17,367 nt of DNA from a virus (IMGVR_UViG_2606217110_000021); one strand, 5' to 3'. Positions 1,975-13,775 are shown, counted from the first letter of the stretch. The notes: a model not told the origin generated them from the letters alone. Numbers and translations: made by a program.

Positions 1975-2562
1975 TTTTCCTCACATATGTCATATAGTAA
2001 AGGATTATATATACCGTTGTTTTGGACGCTCAAACAGCGAATCAGATCAAATAAAACGCACATTTGTTAACATTTACACAAAGTCTGCGTGGGATATTCT
2101 GAAAGAATATCCATAATGTGGAGAGAATCTATTGAAGTGCATGGTGCCGGGTGCCTCCCGGTGAACAAAATGTTCGTGATACCTGTCGGCGACAGAAAAG
2201 GTTAATGGTATCACCCCACCGCACAGGGGGATTCACCATGCAGGAGTTTTCTTAGCAAACTCACTGCGCGCCCGGCAACTCCCAACCACATAAAATGCGG
2301 AGTTTGTGGTATTTATGCATATAACTCGCAGGAATTATCTTAAAAAACTGATGTCGATCCGGATTAAAAAGAAGCAGGTCATCATCAGATGACTGGAAAA
2401 AAGGAAAACAAAAAATACTCATCATACAGTTTTGATTGCAGGGATGAGCCTGCTATGCACAATATGCAGAATATAAGCAAGATAAAAATATGCAGGCATA
2501 TTATTTCGGATTTTGTTATTAACACAACCTTTTTAATAATCATTTGGCATACAATAAACCAG

Positions 2563-3561: not shown

Positions 3562-3848
3562 AAATGACCTTTCTTTCTCCAGATTTCTTGTGTGCGAAAA
3601 ACCCCTTCAGCATGCATCAGGCGCAATTCTTCTTTGGTGTAATCGCTGGTTTTTACCCGCCCGTCGATTAGATCGTGGCATGAGCTACAGGCTATCGCCG
3701 CCTGCATATCGTGTGGTTTTGTCGCTGTTCCGCACGTCCCCGCCAGCCTGTAATGCGCCAGCACAGAGGTTTCGGGATTGTGATTGCAGTAGCCAGGGAT
3801 TCTGATCTGGCACATCTGGCCTTTAGCCGCTTTACGTAAATTCACCAT
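3558..3848 (-). CDS. DUF1364 (YbcO-like) putative nuclease
   Basis: 96 aa with CQIRIPGYCNHNPETSVLAHYR and IACSSCHDLID motifs, recalled from the prophage YbcO family. Translationally coupled to the flanking genes. Confidence 0.75.
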   Translation of the reverse strand: MVNLRKAAKGQMCQIRIPGYCNHNPETSVLAHYRLAGTCGTATKPHDMQAAIACSSCHDLIDGRVKTSDYTKEELRLMHAEGVFRTQEIWRKKGHL

Positions 3849-4447
3849 TACGCAAACTCCAGTAGTTGTGCGGCCACATTTTCAACTTCCTCCTGAGAGG
3901 AGAATTTACGAAACAGAATCCAGTTCCACAGCACATTCAGTACAGATTTATAAACCTGCTGAAACTCGACTTCGTCCATATTCGCAAAAGCGATGGATTT
4001 TGCCCGACGCCCACGGCTACCGTCCGGATAAATATGCTCGGTGTAAAATCCGGCCTGAATGGTTACCCACTCGCGGAAAGCCTCAAACGACTTTAGCAAC
4101 GCCGTATCCCGGGTTCTACGAGTCGCAACGGTGTTAAGGTATTGCTCTGCGGCATCACTCAGGGCTGGCGTGTGTTCCCGACCAACTGATTCGCACAGGT
4201 AATCAACGAAACCAGACAGCAGTTCTCGTTCGCGAGGCGTGATCGCCCCACCGACCGGAGTCCAGTAATCGAATCCCAGTTGCAGGAGTTTGAAAAAACG
4301 CTTGTGGAATGCGTAGTTACGCACACGCTTAAAGTCTGCGTGTATCCACTCACCTATTTTGATTTGATGCAGAAAATCGCAACTCTCCGGCGTCGCCGGG
4401 AGAAGTAAACCAGAAGAAGTTTGTTTGACCAGTTGTATATGCGCCAT
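3848..4447 (-). CDS. DUF1367-like phage protein (nin-region type)
   Basis: 199-aa ORF; its stop overlaps the downstream start. Family assignment is from memory of prophage YdfU-like proteins and is tentative. Confidence 0.65.
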   Translation of the reverse strand: MAHIQLVKQTSSGLLLPATPESCDFLHQIKIGEWIHADFKRVRNYAFHKRFFKLLQLGFDYWTPVGGAITPRERELLSGFVDYLCESVGREHTPALSDAAEQYLNTVATRRTRDTALLKSFEAFREWVTIQAGFYTEHIYPDGSRGRRAKSIAFANMDEVEFQQVYKSVLNVLWNWILFRKFSSQEEVENVAAQLLEFA

Positions 4448-4727
4448 TTCTCAATCTCTCGATGGCGCAGCGCAGCAGATGCCAGTTGTTCAGGCTGACG
4501 AATAAAGTATAAATAAACTGGCTATGGTGTAAAGCCCCACATAGCATGAACAAACACTACATATCAAATAGCTGGTACAAGGATAGAAATACGACATTTA
4601 TTATTAAAAACGATTAGATAAATTACATTTTAATGTTATGCAAAAGTTCTTTTTTATCATAACATTTCAATAAAAGCATTACAGATGCAATCATCCCGTC
4701 ATCATCAATTATTTAAGGTGGTTAAAC

Positions 4728-4814
4728 ATGGAAAATAACAAGTTCGCACATCTCGCTCCTTTTTTATCCGTAATCCTTTTCGCTTGTTGTTTTATATGGG
4801 CATTATTTTTATAA
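4728..4814 (+). CDS. candidate 28-aa small hydrophobic membrane peptide
   Basis: ATG at 4728 preceded by AAGGTGG at 6 nt. Translation MENNKFAHLAPFLSVILFACCFIWALFL gives a short polar N-terminus followed by one roughly 20-residue hydrophobic stretch. It is below the ORF-track size cut-off. Confidence 0.35.
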   Translation: MENNKFAHLAPFLSVILFACCFIWALFL

Positions 4815-5205
4815 AGTAGCCACATGATAAGTTGCTGGAATCATATTTCCCACTCAAGTCATTAACATTTGATAAGATATATCTAAAAGGACGCCTTTAC
4901 ATTATTTATGTGTATATAATTTATTTATATACACAGTAAAGGTATCCTGGGAAAATATTTATCGTTAAAAAATACATCATAAATAATTAAGCTGAAATTT
5001 CAGAACACAACTAATACACACAATAAGGTTCAGTAACAATAATCTATGTGGACTACATCGAGATTTTTTGATTAAACTTTAATAACTTATTCCTAACACA
5101 CAGAATGCATAAACTAAAAGTAAAACAAATAGTTATACGAAAAACAACCATATTTATTATATCTTCTCCTCTAATCAACATATCAATTATGTGTTTCATA
5201 ACAGC

Positions 5206-5238
5206 TTGACATAACCCTCAAAAACACGCATTTATAAT
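5206..5238 (+). promoter_or_regulatory. putative sigma70 promoter for the DUF1971 gene
   Basis: Consensus TTGACA at 5206-5211 and consensus TATAAT at 5233-5238. The spacer is 21 bp, which is longer than optimal, so this is tentative. Confidence 0.3.
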
Positions 5239-5260
5239 GCATGTTTTTGAGGAGGTGGTT

Positions 5261-5599
5261 ATGACACACAAGAGAATTCCTAAAGATTGGGTAATCAAAC
5301 GCTCAACTCCGTTCTTCACAAAAGAGAACGTACCTTCAGCGTTATTAACACATCATAATACAGCAGCAGGTGTTTTTGGGCAGTTGTGCGTAATGGAAGG
5401 CACTGTAACATATTATGGTTTTACTGATGAGAATGCTACTGAACCGGAGATAAAAGTAGTCATTAATGCTGGCGCTTTTGCAACAAGCCCACCACAATAC
5501 TGGCACCGTGTTGAACTAAGCGATGATGCTCAGTTTAATATTAACTTTTGGGTCGCTCCAGACTTCTCGGGCGAAAAAGTCTATAGCACCAAAAAATAG
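5261..5599 (+). CDS. DUF1971 / YeaR-like protein (TehB N-terminal domain family)
   Basis: The ORF track starts at 5237, but ATG at 5261 has GGAGG at 5 nt. Motifs RSTPFF, VFGQLCVMEGTVTYYGF, INAGAFATSPPQYWHRVE and FNINFWVAPDF match my recollection of E. coli YeaR. Confidence 0.75.
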   Translation: MTHKRIPKDWVIKRSTPFFTKENVPSALLTHHNTAAGVFGQLCVMEGTVTYYGFTDENATEPEIKVVINAGAFATSPPQYWHRVELSDDAQFNINFWVAPDFSGEKVYSTKK

Positions 5600-5628
5600 A
5601 TGATCATATTAAAAATGCTTTAACAGTC

Positions 5629-5665
5629 AGACCCGGCAGGGCTATCCCCGACGGGTCTCATTTTT
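5629..5665 (+). terminator. intrinsic terminator after the DUF1971 gene
   Basis: Stem AGACCCG/CGGGTCT with inner GGG/CCC pairing, followed by CATTTTT, 30 nt after the stop. Confidence 0.6.
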
Positions 5666-6074
5666 GTAAATATATTGGTTCTACATTGACAGGAGACTTC
5701 AATCATAAGAAGTAATCTGAATACTTGAGCAATAAATTTACTTAAGATTAATGAGCGCACCTTGCCGGACAAAGATAAACCAAGGTAACACCTTTTTTCT
5801 AGCCAGTATGTAATCAATCAGAAAGCCGCTCCATAAGAACAACAGCAAGACAATAAATTGCCATTACAGCCGCAATAGCCAGCGCACATTTGAGAACCAG
5901 CACGACACCCCCCTGTATTAGACGCACACCAGTCCTGATAAATATAAGGCTGTCTCGTCAGTGATTCAATACAACTATTGGGTATAGTTTCTGTGATTTT
6001 ATTCTGTAGAAATGGAACACAACAACCAGTCACCACCAGCACTTCTTTAAATACGCCAAGTCCGACGCAAGCTA

Positions 6075-6140
6075 ACCTTCTAGTCCGCTTTGAGCGAGAA
6101 GCGGAAGTCTCGGTCTTATTATGTTCTGAGACTAGAAGGT
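6075..6140. repeat. nested and overlapping inverted repeats (structured element)
   Basis: Outer 11-bp perfect inverted repeat ACCTTCTAGTC (6075-6085) and GACTAGAAGGT (6130-6140). Inner hairpins CGCTT/AAGCG (6086-6103) and AGTCTC/GAGACT (6106-6133); the second overlaps the outer right arm. Confidence 0.5.
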
Positions 6141-6202
6141 ATTTCTTAAGGATGATTATTCGTTACGCCTACATATAATAGAAACAGAAATTTAAAGTTT
6201 AA

Positions 6203-6232
6203 ATCTAGGTATCTGGCTAATGATACCTAGAT
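6203..6232 (-). terminator. hairpin downstream of the HEPN-like gene (probable terminator)
   Basis: Perfect 11-bp stem ATCTAGGTATC/GATACCTAGAT with an 8-nt loop, about 40 nt past the stop at 6270. The flanks are A/T-rich but lack a clean U-tract. Confidence 0.45.
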
Positions 6233-6269
6233 TGAATTTGAATCATATTTTGTTAGTTAACTTTAACTA

Positions 6270-7637
6270 TTATCTTTCTCCAACATCCTCTTCTAAAACA
6301 TGATCTATCTTATCTACAGGAAGATTATCATACTTAGAAAAATCAAAACCATCGGGAAGTTTATTTTTTGCTGCTTTTAATATTCTTATTGAATCGTTAC
6401 CGTTTCTAGAGCGATTTCGCCAATAACATTGATTGTTTTTGTTTGCTCCTTCAAGCAGGGTTAACATTTGCTCGCTTGAGTAATTAGCCAAGTCTTTGTC
6501 AATAAATCTATCAAAATATATATCGGCTCGTTCGAAATCAGCACTATTTATAAAACAAGCAATTCCAAAATCGCGATACTCTGATTCCAAACCTAATTCG
6601 CTGCAAACATTTTTAAAAATTGCCAAATGTTGCTGGTTGAGAAAATTCCCATTATCCCCGTATTTTTTGTAATATTTTTCAGATATTCTTTTTGTTACGC
6701 GATTAATGTGTTCCTCCGGCGATTCAGATATAAAAAAGGCTATTCCAAAATAAGATATGTTATCTTTTATAATAGGCTTTATGAGTTCTTTTACTGAATC
6801 ATCCAAGGCGTTATATATTTCTTTCTCCATGGAAATGAACTCAATTAGTGCCTTAATTGCATCATGGTTATTGGAAATATTGGAGTAATAAGCAGTTTCT
6901 GCTTTAACCGAGTCCACCATGGCTTGCCTGTCTTTTTCAAATATCAGTTTCATAGCTCTGATATTTATCTCTCTATTTTCTAATGGCTTAGCTTCTTCAG
7001 ATCTAAACGAAAACTTCCACAACCCCTTGAATATCTTAACTAATACTTCCTTGTTTAAAGATTTGAAATATTTAACATCTAAGTATTTTTTTAGCGCGTT
7101 ATCGGAAGGGAATAGGTCCTTTACCTTTTCTAGATCTGCAACAAATGTGGAAAGTATTTTTTGAGACATAAATGGCGGCTTGCTTAATATTACTTCTATA
7201 CTATTCCTAATGTCACTTCTAATCATTTCCTGTGTTGGCTCGAATAACGTATCTTCGTCACTTATTACGGGATGGGCAGATAAATGCCTGTGTTTTTGAA
7301 TAAGTAAAACTTTATGGTTTGAAGCAGTGTCTAATAATTGAGTTCTTTCAAAAACTCTTTTAATAAGCTCTTTTTCCCATTTAGGAGAGTAAGGATCATC
7401 GTTTTGTAGTGCTTCAATTTCTAATAATATCTTTTCCGCAACAGCATCGTTATGAACATCTCGCAGTTCTTGGAGCTTAAAAATAATATCACATACAACT
7501 ACTGACCATAGCATCACGGTAGCAGAACGGTAACAACCATTAGCATAGCTCTTATAAACCTCTTCAAAATATTTTCTAGTTCTTCTATCATAAATTTTAC
7601 TCTTCTGAGATTCTAATGAGAATATTCTAACGTCCAT
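6270..7637 (-). CDS. orphan 455-aa protein with N-terminal HEPN-like domain (Rx4H motif); candidate abortive-infection or defence RNase
   Basis: The ORF track gives 6270..7685, but the likely start is ATG at 7637 with GGAGA at 6 nt. Strongly AT-rich. The sequence [13 protein letters not shown] (nt 7272-7292) fits the HEPN Rx4-6H signature. The C-terminal ~320 aa carry no motif I can recognise. Confidence 0.8.
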
Positions 7638-7933
7638 AATTTCTCCATGAAAAATATTTAACTCAAATAATTGAATATGAATCATGTAGTCATAAATACT
7701 TCAAAATTATATTTTTAGCCCACTTAATTCATACAAAACTTCTTTAATAAACTGATTCAGGCCTCATGCATTATGCTTTTAACAAACTATCCTAACCTTC
7801 ATAGTGTAAATCTTGATGTTCAATTTTACAATACGCCAAGTTTCCGTAAATCAATGAATGCGTCGGATTTTACAATAATTTAAAAGAGATGTTGAATAGT
7901 ATCCATGAAGTGTAAGGTTAATATACCCAAAAC

Positions 7934-7957
7934 GTCCGCCTCTGGCACAAAGCGGAC
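7934..7957 (-). terminator. weak hairpin downstream of backbone gene 8026-8448
   Basis: GTCCGC/GCGGAC stem with a 12-nt loop. On the minus strand it is followed by GTTTTGGG. Confidence 0.3.
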
Positions 7958-8025
7958 AACCACGCTAGCTCTACCCTGTGCCACAAAATGTCAATTTGCA
8001 TCTGAACTAATGCACTTTAATCTCG

Positions 8026-8448
8026 TCACTTCAATAAATACCGAACATCACCCTGATAAAACGACAATATGCGCTGCATAACTTCACTCTTCCGGCACTC
8101 GCGACAGATTATGTTCTGACGCCTGTCGTAGCGACGTATTTCTCCGTCAGGTAATGACCAGATAAGGTCCGGATCAACCGCAGATGGTTTCTTCAGCTTT
8201 GCCCTTGAGAGCTTTTTACGGGCATTTTGCCAGTCCTTACGCGCCTGTTCAGACGGGAATAACCCGTAACCAGAGTTGTATACATCGCCGCTGGCAACCA
8301 GCTCTCTTGCGAGAACGCTCATCAGATATCTTGTCGCATCTGTCTTGACTTCCAGTTGCCGTAACGTCTCGCGTCCACTCCGGCGTACTAGCTCAACAAC
8401 CTGCCCTTTAATTTTTTCCCGCTCTTCCTGTGTAAAAACTTTTGCCAT
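8026..8448 (-). CDS. hypothetical phage protein
   Basis: The ORF track gives 8026..8463; the likely start is ATG at 8448 (MAKVFTQEE...) with GGAGG at 5 nt. Basic protein with a CxxC pair (ICRECRK). It abuts the upstream gene. Confidence 0.7.
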   Translation of the reverse strand: MAKVFTQEEREKIKGQVVELVRRSGRETLRQLEVKTDATRYLMSVLARELVASGDVYNSGYGLFPSEQARKDWQNARKKLSRAKLKKPSAVDPDLIWSLPDGEIRRYDRRQNIICRECRKSEVMQRILSFYQGDVRYLLK

Positions 8449-8463
8449 AAGCGCCTCCGGCAA

Positions 8464-13112: not shown

Positions 13113-13553
13113 ATCAATAACTCTCAACTGTAAGGGTATTGAAATGTTAACACAAGCTCTCGCTGTAGGGGTATAGCCGAGACCACCGAAGTCCGGAGGT
13201 GGTGAAATAAAACCGGGCACAACACGAAGGCGCATTTCCGATATCCATAAAGAGTCGGTCTTGTCTGTTAAATTTAAATGGTGGGAGTGCGCCTCCGGTT
13301 GTAAATAACGACATTGCTGTGTGTAGTCCTGGCGGCATCAGTTTTTTTCTTGAAGTTCGGCTGATGTCCGCCCTTTTTAAAGTGAATTTTGTGATGCGGT
13401 GAATGCGGCTAAGCGCACGTGGCACAGTTAAAAGTCATGTTAGTCCTTATTGGTTTGGGTGGGAAAGCCGACTGTAATTGTTAACTGGTTGCAGTCACCT
13501 GGAGGCACCAGGCACCGCATCAACAAAGTTCATTTGTAAAAATGGAGATAATT

Positions 13554-13775
13554 ATGATTGCACATCACTTCGGAACTGATGAAATACCACGTCAGTGTGT
13601 GACTCCTGGCGATTATGTTCTTCATGAAGGCCGGACATATATTGCCTCGGCAAACAATATTAAAAAGCGAAAACTATATATTCGTAACCTGACCACAAAA
13701 ACATGCATTACTGACCGCATGATTAAAGTCTTCCTCGGTCGTGATGGTTTACCTGTAAAGGCGGAGTCATGGTGA
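13554..13775 (+). CDS. kilR: KilR (FtsZ-targeting killing protein of Rac)
   Basis: The ORF track gives 13542..13775; ATG at 13554 has GGAG at 6 nt. The 73-aa product [45 protein letters not shown]... matches KilR as recalled. Confidence 0.8.

What the first reader, a model, noticed from the sequence alone, without database searches (positions are those of the whole stretch)
4450..8025. AT-rich accessory island between the nin/Q-like block and the replication module
From about 4560 to 7990 the sequence is visibly more AT-rich than the flanking prophage backbone, with long A/T runs, large intergenic spacers and convergent genes each with its own promoter-like and terminator elements. This is the layout expected for horizontally acquired moron cargo. 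As I recall, the comparable position in the E. coli Qin prophage carries toxin-antitoxin cargo (hokD, relBE), consistent with a hotspot for addiction or defence genes.
Basis: partly seen in the sequence, partly recalled or inferred. Interest (0 to 1): 0.5.

Follow-up and report, generated by a model that had tools for sequence, protein, structure and literature searches.

The report
Prophage defence-gene hotspot carrying DARNA
The AT-rich stretch is a real, horizontally acquired cargo slot in a Rac-like E. coli prophage; its main gene is an exact copy of an already characterised anti-phage protein (PD-T7-3 / DARNA), so the finding is correct but largely known, apart from the palindromic sites that bracket the gene.

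Summary
Window 4448-8025 is 34.2% GC, while no other stretch of equal length in the window falls below 42.3%.

The island lies between the replication module (DUF977/ydaW-like) and the nin/Q block (DUF1367) of a Rac-like prophage. It has two cargo slots separated by a conserved 300-bp segment.

Slot B holds a 455-aa gene (6270-7637, minus strand). It is 100% identical to PDB 9wxf and matches PADLOC PD-T7-3 (= DARNA) over its full length. DARNA is a published HEPN tRNA anticodon nuclease, activated by ssDNA presented by phage SSB. Related lambdoid phages carry PD-T7-1, CBASS, Nsn, AbiH and others in this slot: 18 fillings in 77 loci.

Slot A holds a YeaR-like DUF1971 gene with a predicted NsrR operator. 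Relatives carry hokD there. The window itself has no toxin-antitoxin gene.

The less expected result concerns the cassette ends. The cassette lies between two inverted 24-bp palindromic sites. The same sites bracket 48 different cargos in lambdoid and P2-like phages, four of them shared between the two. They also occur as REP-like repeats in other bacteria.

Two conserved, unannotated small ORFs (28 and 29 aa) also lie in the island.

The parts
4448..8025 (.). AT-rich accessory island between the DUF1367 (nin-like) gene and the DUF977 (ydaW-like) gene of a Rac-like prophage
   Evidence: GC 0.342 against a minimum of 0.423 elsewhere. Flanking genes identified by Pfam. Prophage context trkG...intR-ttcA seen in L001.
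4448..4815 (.). Conserved backbone segment upstream of DUF1367, shared at 74-95% identity with prophages that carry hokD
   Evidence: BLAST against L005, L013, L056, L045.
4728..4814 (+). Unannotated conserved small ORF, 28 aa, hydrophobic (MENNKFAHLAPFLSVILFACCFIWALFL), with Shine-Dalgarno TAAGGTG
   Evidence: Start and length are kept in all 8 aligned copies, and the stop in 7 of them (in L056 a one-base gap lies at the stop), at about 75% DNA identity. The 7 pairwise comparisons give 0-7 synonymous and 3-8 non-synonymous codon changes on this strand, against 0-5 and 4-17 for the overlapping minus-strand ORF 4709-4825, which is broken in several copies. No family hit.
4816..5798 (.). Cargo slot A. 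Relatives have the hokD locus here; one locus (L045) has both hokD and DUF1971
   Evidence: Homology breakpoints at 4815/4816 and 5798/5799.
5223..5245 (.). Predicted NsrR-type operator, an 11-1-11 palindrome AACACGCATTT-A-TAATGCATGTT, inside a 17-bp-arm inverted repeat (5216-5252) that overlaps a TATAAT box and the Shine-Dalgarno of DUF1971
   Evidence: 18.0 bits with a weight matrix built from 19 published NsrR sites (PMC5320621). Next best in the window is 8.0. Leave-one-out scores of known sites are 6.7-27.6. The maximum of 200 random controls is 16.9. Fold z = -5.6. The variant in L045 (AAGGTGCATTT-A-TAATGCATTTT) keeps the consensus.
5261..5599 (+). DUF1971 / YeaR-like (TehB N-terminal-like) gene, 112 aa, start preceded by GAGGAGG
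   Evidence: Pfam PF09313, E = 2.6e-26. 41% identical to K-12 YeaR. PDB 3dl3, E = 3.5e-59. Annotated WP_000149055.1.
5629..5667 (+). Intrinsic terminator of DUF1971 (GC-rich stem followed by UCAUUUUUG)
   Evidence: Fold -17.7 kcal/mol, z = -2.3.
5799..6096 (.). Conserved ~300-bp segment separating the two slots; matched at about 86-95% identity in the sampled records, with no annotated feature under the match
   Evidence: 2002 of 5426 genomes match the 4450-6102 query, and most rows of the spread sample match only this 300-bp part, annotated 'none'. Alignment A1.
5814..5903 (-). Unannotated conserved small ORF, 29 aa, hydrophobic ((V/M)LVLKCALAIAAVMAIYCLAVVLMERLSD), GTG start; Shine-Dalgarno AGGAGG in relatives, GGGGGG here
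   Evidence: It is the most conserved block of the segment even in the divergent phage HannyBb, and substitutions are synonymous or conservative. tblastn finds it in 48 of 80 lambdoid loci and in 4 phage records. A promoter-like TTGAAT-17-TATATT lies at 5969-5941. No family hit.
6083..6106 (+). 'L' boundary site of the cassette: GTCCGC-TTTGAGCGAGAA-GCGGAA (6-bp arms, 12-nt spacer)
   Evidence: Part of the 52-nt inverted repeat 6070-6121 / 7919-7970.
6097..7942 (.). Cargo slot B, the DARNA cassette, delimited by where cargo-linked site variants begin. By BLAST it spans 6082-7957 against the P2-like copy and 6103-7930 against the alternative cargo
6199..6236 (-). Hairpin 34 nt downstream of the DARNA stop codon, a probable terminator
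   Evidence: 15-nt arms, 93% complementary. Fold z = -4.8.
6270..7637 (-). PD-T7-3 / DARNA / 'Dandelion' gene, 455 aa: N-terminal HEPN RNase plus a C-terminal alpha-helical ssDNA-sensing domain. The ORF listing start at 7685 is an upstream in-frame ATG without a Shine-Dalgarno
   Evidence: PADLOC PDLC04108, E = 3e-168, positions 3-429 of 432. 100% identity over 455 aa with PDB 9wxf. F6, N33, R98, R117, H122, E347, F368 and W406 are all present. GGAGA lies 5 nt before the ATG at 7637.
7823..7850 (-). Promoter-like site of the DARNA gene (TTTACG-16-TAAAAT)
   Evidence: The same hexamers are annotated as -35/-10 in GenBank AJ512676.1.
7934..7957 (-). 'R' boundary site: GTCCGC-TTTGTGCCAGAG-GCGGAC, followed on the minus strand by GTTTTGGG. 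It is also terminator-like and lies 69 nt after the DUF977 stop
   Evidence: (fold z = -2.3).

Best explanation
The interval is a two-slot cargo (moron) hotspot of a Rac-like lambdoid prophage. It sits where the early rightward operon passes from the replication genes (ydaS...ydaV, DUF1627, DUF977) into the nin/Q genes (DUF1367, DUF1364, DUF1133).

Slot B carries a self-contained cassette: its own promoter, a 455-aa gene and a terminator hairpin. The gene encodes PD-T7-3/DARNA. According to the published work on the identical protein, DARNA forms a dodecamer of HEPN dimers whose active sites are occluded. During infection, ssDNA presented by the phage SSB (but not the host SSB) binds the C-terminal 'claws'. 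The HEPN sites then cut tRNA anticodon loops, translation stops and the infection aborts. The lysogen population, and therefore the prophage, is protected against T-even, T5 and T7-type phages.

Slot A carries a YeaR-like DUF1971 gene with its own terminator. A predicted NsrR operator lies over its promoter, so it is probably de-repressed under nitrosative stress. Its biochemical function is unknown.

The cassette was acquired laterally. It is bounded by two inverted 24-bp palindromic sites that also bound the same cassette, and many others, at the Z/fun hotspot of P2-like phages. Exchange has occurred inside these sites.

What is shown here: composition, gene identities, variability of the slots, sharing with P2, and the junction architecture. 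What is taken from the literature: the DARNA mechanism. What is inferred: expression in the lysogen, NsrR control, and the way cassettes move.
For: - Composition.
- Gene identity: PADLOC PD-T7-3 at E = 3e-168; 100% identity to PDB 9wxf, deposited with 12 chains; all published functional residues present (against bioRxiv 10.64898/2026.02.22.705581).
- Source: PD-T7-3 was cloned from ECOR30. The same cassette was deposited as phage P2-EC30 Z-region ORF1, AJ512676.1.
- Anti-phage activity of PD-T7-3 is reported in PMC9519451.
- Hotspot behaviour: 18 fillings in 77 lambdoid loci, mostly AT-rich. They include PD-T7-1, CBASS, Nsn, PDC-S15, Tmn, AbiH, SIR2 and GmrSD.
- Rarity: the cassette is in 15 of 5426 E. 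coli genomes.
- Slot A: hokD occupies it in relatives. The DUF1971 gene is identified, and the NsrR-type operator.
- Own signals: promoter and terminators.
- Junction sites.
Against: - No expression or phenotype data exist for this prophage copy. AT-rich DNA of this kind is commonly silenced by H-NS, so the genes might be poorly expressed.
- Promoter-like hits in the island are not more frequent than in shuffled sequence.
- In one near-identical genome (L001) the gene is annotated as two ORFs, which shows that copies decay.
- The NsrR operator is a prediction from a weight matrix. One of 200 random controls came close (16.9 against 18.0 bits).
- The DARNA mechanism rests on a preprint.
Confidence: 0.9

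Rival explanations
1. The island is a toxin-antitoxin (addiction) locus, as at the equivalent place in Qin (hokD, relBE). On this view the two small hydrophobic ORFs (28 and 29 aa) are type I toxins with antisense RNA antitoxins.
For: Relatives carry hokD exactly in slot A. K-12 Qin has hokD-relE-relB there. The window has two conserved, unannotated, hydrophobic small ORFs with good ribosome-binding sites, a size and composition typical of type I toxins.
Against: There is no Hok, RelE or RelB-like sequence in the window (best E = 0.22 over 12 residues). Homology to hok-bearing relatives breaks in the -35 box of the hok promoter. The small ORFs match no toxin family and no Rfam antisense RNA lies in the island. 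The 29-aa ORF co-occurs with hok in relatives rather than replacing it. The largest cargo is a defence gene, not a toxin-antitoxin pair.
Confidence: 0.07
2. The AT-rich stretch is decaying, non-functional remnant DNA of a cryptic prophage (pseudogenes and debris), with no present function.
For: Rac-type prophages are commonly defective. IS1 or IS3 insertions lie in or beside this interval in several genomes (H2-H9). The gene is split in L001. About 40% of the island has no annotated gene.
Against: The 455-aa ORF is intact and identical to a protein that has been purified, solved and shown to be active. The DUF1971 ORF is intact with Shine-Dalgarno, operator and terminator. The 'empty' spacers contain ORFs kept intact across copies that are about 75% identical. 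The cassette is 99.7-100% identical across unrelated phages, indicating recent spread.
Confidence: 0.03

Closest known systems
PD-T7-3 (Vassallo et al. 2022, PMC9519451) = DARNA (bioRxiv 10.64898/2026.02.22.705581) = 'Dandelion' (PDB 9wxf, 9wwz, 9wx2)
   Same: The protein is identical over all 455 residues. The HEPN Rx4H motif and all residues mutated in the preprint are present. It is a single-gene system with its own promoter.
   Different: Genomic location. The characterised copy came from ECOR30, and the 2004 GenBank record of the same cassette places it in the Z region of a P2-like prophage of that strain. Here the cassette sits in a Rac-like lambdoid prophage between the replication and nin modules.
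P2 Z/fun defence hotspot between tail-fibre assembly gene G and tail-sheath gene FI (described as a second P2 hotspot in PMC9519451; iLund4u preprint 10.1101/2024.10.15.618418)
   Same: It shows the same cassette architecture and the same two 24-bp boundary sites. Four cargos are shared with the lambdoid slot: DARNA, a 269-aa gene, PD-T7-1 and one more.
   Different: The backbone is unrelated. Diagnostic bases inside the sites differ by backbone: TCTGTGCCA and GCAGAC in P2, TTTGTGCCA and GCGGAC in lambdoid phages.
Qin prophage rem-hokD-relE-relB region of E. coli K-12, and the hokD/hokW loci of lambdoid phages such as mEp460
   Same: The position relative to the nin/Q block is equivalent. hokD occupies slot A in most relatives.
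   Different: This window has no hok or relBE. K-12 Qin shares no DNA with the island and lacks the 29-aa ORF.
E. coli yeaR-yoaG operon (NsrR- and NarL-regulated, induced by nitrate/NO; PMC5320621)
   Same: The protein has the DUF1971 fold family and is 41% identical to YeaR. An 11-1-11 NsrR-type palindrome lies at the promoter.
   Different: The gene is prophage-borne, has no yoaG partner, and is closer to PDB 3dl3 'tellurite resistance protein B' than to YeaR. Regulation has not been tested.
REP/REPIN dispersed palindromes, and integron or pdif-module cassette systems (as analogies for the boundary sites)
   Same: The sites are short imperfect palindromes. They are dispersed in intergenic gaps, often as inverted doublets about 15 nt apart, with many copies per genome. 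Cassettes lie in tandem, each bounded by a pair of sites.
   Different: They lack the GTAG motif of enterobacterial REPs and the attC R'/R'' cores. No integron integrase or other recombinase is consistently nearby (2 integrases among 139 ORFs). Association with a RAYT transposase was not tested.

Membership tests
PD-T7-3 / DARNA | Full-length similarity to the family profile | tested here: met
   PADLOC PDLC04108, E = 3e-168, 558 bits, protein 5-440 against profile 3-429 of 432.
PD-T7-3 / DARNA | N-terminal HEPN domain with catalytic R117-x4-H122 | tested here: met
   R117 and H122 lie in [11 protein letters not shown]. PDB 9wx2 'Dandelion-hepn' is identical over residues 1-158.
PD-T7-3 / DARNA | C-terminal ssDNA-sensing domain with F368 and W406; RNA-contact residue R98; oligomer-interface residues F6, N33, E347; regulatory loop 81-85 | tested here: met
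   All are present at the published positions; the loop reads DPYSP.
PD-T7-3 / DARNA | Dodecameric assembly | not testable with these tools
   The identical sequence is deposited as a 12-chain entry, 9wxf, and the preprint reports a 660-kDa dodecamer.
PD-T7-3 / DARNA | Abortive-infection defence through tRNA anticodon cleavage triggered by phage-SSB-bound ssDNA | not testable with these tools
   Literature only. It applies by sequence identity.
Prophage defence hotspot | Conserved flanking genes with variable content between them in related elements | tested here: met
   18 fillings of 805-5366 bp among 77 DUF977-anchored loci.
Prophage defence hotspot | Cargo enriched in known defence systems | tested here: met
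   PD-T7-1, CBASS cyclase plus 2TM effector, NsnA/B/C, PDC-S15, Tmn, PD-T4-2_A, AbiH, SIR2, GmrSD. No formal enrichment statistic was computed.
hok/sok or relBE toxin-antitoxin locus | A Hok-family or RelE/RelB coding sequence | tested here: not met
   tblastn of HokD, Hok(R1), RelE and RelB against the window gives nothing better than E = 0.22 over 12 residues, and nothing in the island.
DUF1971 / YeaR family | DUF1971 domain | tested here: met
   PF09313, E = 2.6e-26, profile positions 1-80 of 80.
NsrR regulon | 11-1-11 inverted-repeat operator at the promoter | tested here: met
   18.0 bits, within the range of known sites and above all 200 random controls. Binding was not tested.
Integron | attC sites with RYYYAAC / GTTRRRY cores and an adjacent IntI integrase | tested here: not met
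   The boundary sites are GTCCGC-N12-GCGGAC. There is no integrase in the window's island, and only 2 integrases among 139 ORFs near chromosomal arrays.
REP / REPIN | Short palindromes dispersed in intergenic regions, many per genome, often as inverted doublets | tested here: met
   Up to 12 sites per 8 kb in Xanthobacteraceae MAGs. R/L doublets 39-42 nt apart in Erwinia, Ewingella, Citrobacter and others.
REP / REPIN | Cognate RAYT (Y1 HUH) transposase in the genome | not tested

The most novel reading that the evidence does not exclude
The two inverted 24-bp palindromes that bound the DARNA cassette may be portable cassette-boundary sites. The R site is GTCCGC-TYTGTGCCA-NN-A-GCGGAC. The L site is the same with a TGAGCGA loop.

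They bracket at least 48 unrelated cargos at two hotspots of unrelated phage families, the P2 Z locus and the lambdoid slot between DUF977 and nin. Crossovers map inside the sites and cargo orientation is fixed. The same sites form tandem cassette arrays in Erwiniaceae and Enterobacteriaceae chromosomes, and are sequence-identical to a REP-like repeat of soil Alphaproteobacteria.

If these sites direct exchange, whether through a trans-acting recombinase or transposase or through recombination targeted to the hairpins, they would explain how single-gene defence systems shuttle between unrelated prophage hotspots. A 2026 survey (PMC13586616) lists that question as unresolved.

Caveat: the title of Nilsson et al. 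2004 (Mol Biol Evol 21:1), and the repeat features in its GenBank records, suggest that the P2 half of this, and a link to enterobacterial prophages, were already described. I could not read that paper.
Probability: 0.3. Interest if true: 0.7.

Novelty: new member of a known kind. Interest (0 to 1): 0.4.

Why it matters
As a gene find it adds little: the protein is already cloned, tested and solved.

What it does add is context. A validated P2-borne defence gene also resides, as the same 1.9-kb cassette, in Rac-like lambdoid prophages, at a slot that is itself a rich defence hotspot. The un-named fillings of that slot are therefore good candidates for new systems: a 269-aa phrog_21495 protein, a HEPN/RES-like plus GNAT-like pair, and a 1210-aa protein.

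The shared boundary palindromes give a concrete, testable handle on how defence cassettes move between unrelated phages.

The two conserved small ORFs, and the NsrR-type operator on the DUF1971 gene, are missing from current annotation of a region present in about 2000 sequenced E. coli genomes.

Tried and rejected
- **Toxin-antitoxin reading:** rejected for this window, although hokD occupies slot A in relatives.
- **Known RNA families:** an Rfam scan of the whole window at E <= 1 found nothing credible in the island; the only hit there is a plant miRNA model at E = 0.5. Rfam also has nothing for the alphaproteobacterial repeat.
- **Minus-strand 38-aa ORF 4709-4825**, which some phage annotations call: rejected in favour of the plus-strand 28-aa ORF.
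- **The 74-aa Cys-rich ORF 5818-6042 and the 37-aa reading of 5814-5927:** not supported. Conservation starts at the inner GTG with its Shine-Dalgarno.
- **Integron reading of the cassette arrays:** rejected, because there are no attC cores and no integrase.
- **Invertible-segment reading:** rejected. Cargo is in the same orientation in 115 locus pairs and inverted in none.
- **Boundary hairpins as plain intrinsic terminators:** only the DARNA cassette's R site is followed by a T-run. Most cargos have ATT or GTT followed by unrelated sequence. The L hairpin is not significantly stable (z = -1.1).
- **Literature:** Nilsson et al. 2004 and Odegrip et al. 2006 are not held. Text searches for the site sequence returned only unrelated primers. 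'Dandelion' has no paper in the library.
- **Not run:** structure prediction, because an identical solved structure exists.


Full report

Yes. The sliding profile shows GC falling from 0.50-0.54 at 3800-4400 to 0.26-0.41 between 4400 and 8000, then returning to about 0.50 from 8000.

Computed on exact limits:
- The island 4448-8025 is 0.342 GC.
- The lowest of 133 non-overlapping windows of equal length is 0.423.
- 500-bp windows average 0.339 inside and 0.470 outside.
- Third-codon-position GC is 0.28 for the long gene and 0.36 for DUF1971, against 0.52 for both flanking genes.

The two main genes are convergent. Terminator-like hairpins are enriched (8 found, 2.0 expected). Promoter-like hits are not enriched.

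**2. Where is it?**

The window is a Rac-like prophage of E. coli; near-identical copies lie between trkG and intR-ttcA.

On the minus strand the early operon runs ydaS/T/U/V, DUF1627, DUF977 (8026-8463). The island follows, and then DUF1367 (3848-4447), DUF1364/YbcO and a DUF1133 Q-like gene.

**3. Anatomy**

Comparison with other prophages divides the island into five parts:

| Part | Window | Content |
|---|---|---|
| a | 4448-4815 | conserved backbone |
| b | 4816-5798 | slot A |
| c | 5799-6096 | conserved ~300-bp segment |
| d | 6097-7942 | slot B |
| e | 7943-8025 | conserved backbone up to the DUF977 stop |

**4. Slot B**

*Gene identity.* The long ORF is best read from the ATG at 7637, which has GGAGA five bases upstream; this gives 455 aa.
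- Pfam, PHROGs and NCBIfam give nothing.
- PADLOC gives PD-T7-3 at E = 3e-168 over the full length.
- A search of PDB sequences gives 100% identity over all 455 residues to 9wxf, 'Dandelion', an entry with 12 chains. The two separately solved halves are 9wx2 (HEPN) and 9wwz.

*Published function.* PD-T7-3 was found by functional selection in ECOR30 and protects more strongly against T-even phages than against T7 (PMC9519451). A 2026 preprint renames it DARNA and reports:
- an abortive-infection HEPN RNase with the motif R117-x4-H122;
- a dodecamer;
- cleavage of tRNA anticodon loops;

Every residue that the preprint mutates (F6, N33, R98, R117, H122, E347, F368, W406) is present here.

*Cassette signals.* The cassette has a promoter-like site at 7850-7823, annotated as -35/-10 in GenBank AJ512676.1. 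A strong hairpin lies 34 nt after the stop codon (z = -4.8).

**5. Is slot B a hotspot?**

The DARNA cassette is rare: 15 of 5426 complete E. coli genomes. The one I inspected outside a Rac-like setting (H13, locus L003) lies in a P2-like prophage between tail-sheath gene FI and tail-fibre-assembly gene G.

I collected 80 viral contigs with a DUF977 homologue and mapped anchors on them. Slot B has 18 different fillings in 77 loci, 805-5366 bp long. Most are at 0.32-0.41 GC against 0.46-0.52 for their own backbone. None of the 80 contigs carries DARNA.

The 45 cargo ORFs include:
- PD-T7-1, a CBASS cyclase with a 2TM effector, NsnA/B/C, PDC-S15, Tmn and PD-T4-2_A;
- AbiH, SIR2 and GmrSD;
- QueH, which is the commonest filling.

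Phage mEp460 carries PD-T7-1 in this slot (E = 4e-157).

**6. Slot A**

*The gene.* The gene at 5261-5599 is a DUF1971 protein. It is 41% identical to K-12 YeaR and closest to PDB 3dl3. A terminator follows it (z = -2.3).

*Predicted operator.* At its promoter lies a palindrome with 17-bp arms (5216-5252; z = -5.6). Its core, AACACGCATTT-A-TAATGCATGTT, was scored with a matrix built from 19 NsrR sites listed in PMC5320621. The results:
- this site: 18.0 bits;
- next best site in the window: 8.0;
- known sites, leave-one-out: 6.7-27.6, median 15.8;
- best of 200 random controls: 16.9.

Chromosomal yeaR is itself an NsrR target in that paper. I infer NO-responsive control; binding has not been tested.

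*Relatives.* In most relatives slot A holds hokD instead. One locus has hokD and DUF1971 together. In the window, homology to the hok-bearing relatives ends inside the -35 box of the hok promoter. No Hok, RelE or RelB-like sequence exists in the window.

**7. Two unannotated small ORFs**

*29-aa ORF (5814-5903, minus strand).* The conserved 300-bp segment recurs widely. 2002 of 5426 genomes match the 4450-6102 query, and most sampled rows match only this part, with no annotated feature under the match. Its most conserved core is a 29-aa hydrophobic ORF with a GTG start and, in relatives, an AGGAGG Shine-Dalgarno. Substitutions across five copies are synonymous or conservative, even in a phage that shares nothing else with the segment.

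*28-aa ORF (4728-4814, plus strand).* This hydrophobic ORF keeps its Shine-Dalgarno, start and length in eight copies that are about 75% identical in DNA. The overlapping minus-strand ORF that some annotations call is broken in several copies.

Neither ORF matches a known family. Their function is unknown. Small membrane proteins or type I-like toxins are possible, but nothing tested here supports toxicity.

**8. The cassette boundaries**

*Breakpoints.* Against a Rac-like prophage with another cargo, homology ends at 6102 and resumes at 7931. Against the P2-like copy it spans 6082-7957. The overlaps are two hairpins: 6083-6106 (GTCCGC-TTTGAGCGAGAA-GCGGAA) and, on the minus strand, 7957-7934 (GTCCGC-TTTGTGCCAGAG-GCGGAC). 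They are inverted copies of one site type and form the core of the longest inverted repeat in the region (52 nt).

*The same sites in both phage families.* They recur at the junctions of the lambdoid fillings and of about 37 different fillings of the P2 Z locus. Pooled, 48 distinct cargos are bracketed: 27 found only in P2-like phages, 17 only in lambdoid phages, and 4 in both.

*Where crossovers fall.*
- Conservation extends about 10 nt into the cargo side (A-GCGGAC-RTT) and then falls to background.
- The two variable bases and the inner-arm variants travel with the cargo.
- One base in each site is diagnostic of the backbone and stays with it. This places crossovers within TGTGCCA(NN) on one side and CGCTCAAAGC on the other.
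- Cargo is never inverted: 115 locus pairs share a cargo in the same orientation and none in the opposite one.

*An empty site.* An empty P2 site lacks both sites and about 60 bp on each side (L104).

**9. Where else are the sites?**

I scanned one genome per species for the 24-bp R/L pattern.

- **No phage markers.** None of the 120 loci has P2 tail genes, DUF977 or hok, although positive controls were found as expected.
- **Enterobacterales.** In Erwinia, Ewingella, Pantoea, Mixta, Citrobacter and Enterobacter the R and L sites alternate. Successive R...L units are separated by about 15 nt, giving tandem cassettes or, read differently, REPIN-like inverted doublets in each intergenic gap.
- **Neighbouring genes.** These are ordinary chromosomal genes (LysR, LysE, MFS, ABC) plus Gabija, DRT and Old systems. 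Only 2 integrases occur among 139 ORFs.
- **Other phyla.** In Xanthobacteraceae/Pseudolabrys MAGs, and in some Actinomycetota and Acidobacteriota MAGs, the identical 24-mer is one variant of a dense, same-orientation intergenic repeat.
- **Prior description.** No Rfam family or paper in the library matches it.

My reading is that the sites belong to a REP-like palindrome family that also marks the exchange points of phage defence cassettes. I could not decide whether exchange needs a dedicated enzyme or only short-homology recombination; this prophage encodes RecT.

The GenBank record of the same cassette (AJ512676.1, 'left inverted repeat') and the title of its paper, which I could not read, indicate that the P2 side was described in 2004. 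A 2026 survey of P2/P4 defence exchange does not mention the repeats and treats the mechanism as open.

**10. Verdict**

The main cargo is already known down to its structure. The instance is a new location for it: a lambdoid hotspot that shares cassettes with P2. I score interest at 0.4. The gene itself would rate lower. The shared boundary sites, the unexplored cargos of the slot and the two small ORFs raise the score.

Noticed in passing
window 6083-6106 and 7934-7957; loci L011-L170, L172-L291: Two inverted 24-bp palindromic sites (GTCCGC-N12-GCGGAC, with loops TTTGTGCCA or TTTGAGCGA) bracket 48 different cargos at the lambdoid slot and the P2 Z locus. They form tandem R...L cassette arrays in Erwiniaceae and Enterobacteriaceae chromosomes, and are identical to a REP-like repeat in Xanthobacteraceae and other soil MAGs.
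   Followed up: partly
window 5814-5903 (-): Conserved, unannotated 29-aa hydrophobic ORF (GTG start, AGGAGG Shine-Dalgarno in relatives) in a 300-bp segment that recurs widely in E. coli genomes with no annotated feature under it. In relatives it lies directly upstream of the hokD promoter.
   Followed up: partly
window 4728-4814 (+): Conserved, unannotated 28-aa hydrophobic ORF with a strong Shine-Dalgarno, intact in 8 copies at about 75% DNA identity. Some phage records instead annotate the overlapping opposite-strand 38-aa ORF, which is not conserved.
   Followed up: partly
window 5216-5252: A 17-bp-arm palindrome over the DUF1971 promoter and Shine-Dalgarno scores as an NsrR operator (18 bits), suggesting NO-responsive control of a prophage moron.
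   Followed up: partly
L002 6778-7587; L006 5419-7398; L035 7829-11461; L080 8138-10642: Uncharacterised fillings of the same defence slot: a 269-aa phrog_21495 protein (also found at the P2 Z locus), a two-gene pair with weak HEPN/RES-NTD1 and GNAT hits, and single proteins of 1210 aa and 834 aa. These are candidate new defence systems.
   Followed up: no
window 13318-13373 (+), 2085-2271 (-), 13375-13561 (+): Rfam hits outside the finding: a DicF-like RNA below the gathering score (39 bits against 48), STnc100 above gathering at 2085-2271 (87 bits), and a weaker second STnc100 copy next to the DicF-like element.
   Followed up: no
L104 (P2-like locus), about 1600-1700: An 'empty' P2 Z locus: the G stop codon is followed directly by the terminator upstream of FI, without either boundary site or the roughly 60-bp flanks. 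The whole bracket is therefore itself an insertion in P2-like phages.
   Followed up: partly
L003/L007 flank of the R site: The P2 flank next to the R site contains GGGAGCTTACATA, which I recall as identical to the core of the enterobacterial ERIC repeat. It also holds a degenerate inverted copy of the site (TGGCACAGAGTAAAGC), so the flank may be a repeat-derived doublet.
   Followed up: no
L001 10821-12187 (NZ_CP178650.1): In one otherwise 99.9% identical genome the DARNA gene is annotated as two ORFs (321 and 1044 nt), implying an inactivating mutation in that copy.
   Followed up: no
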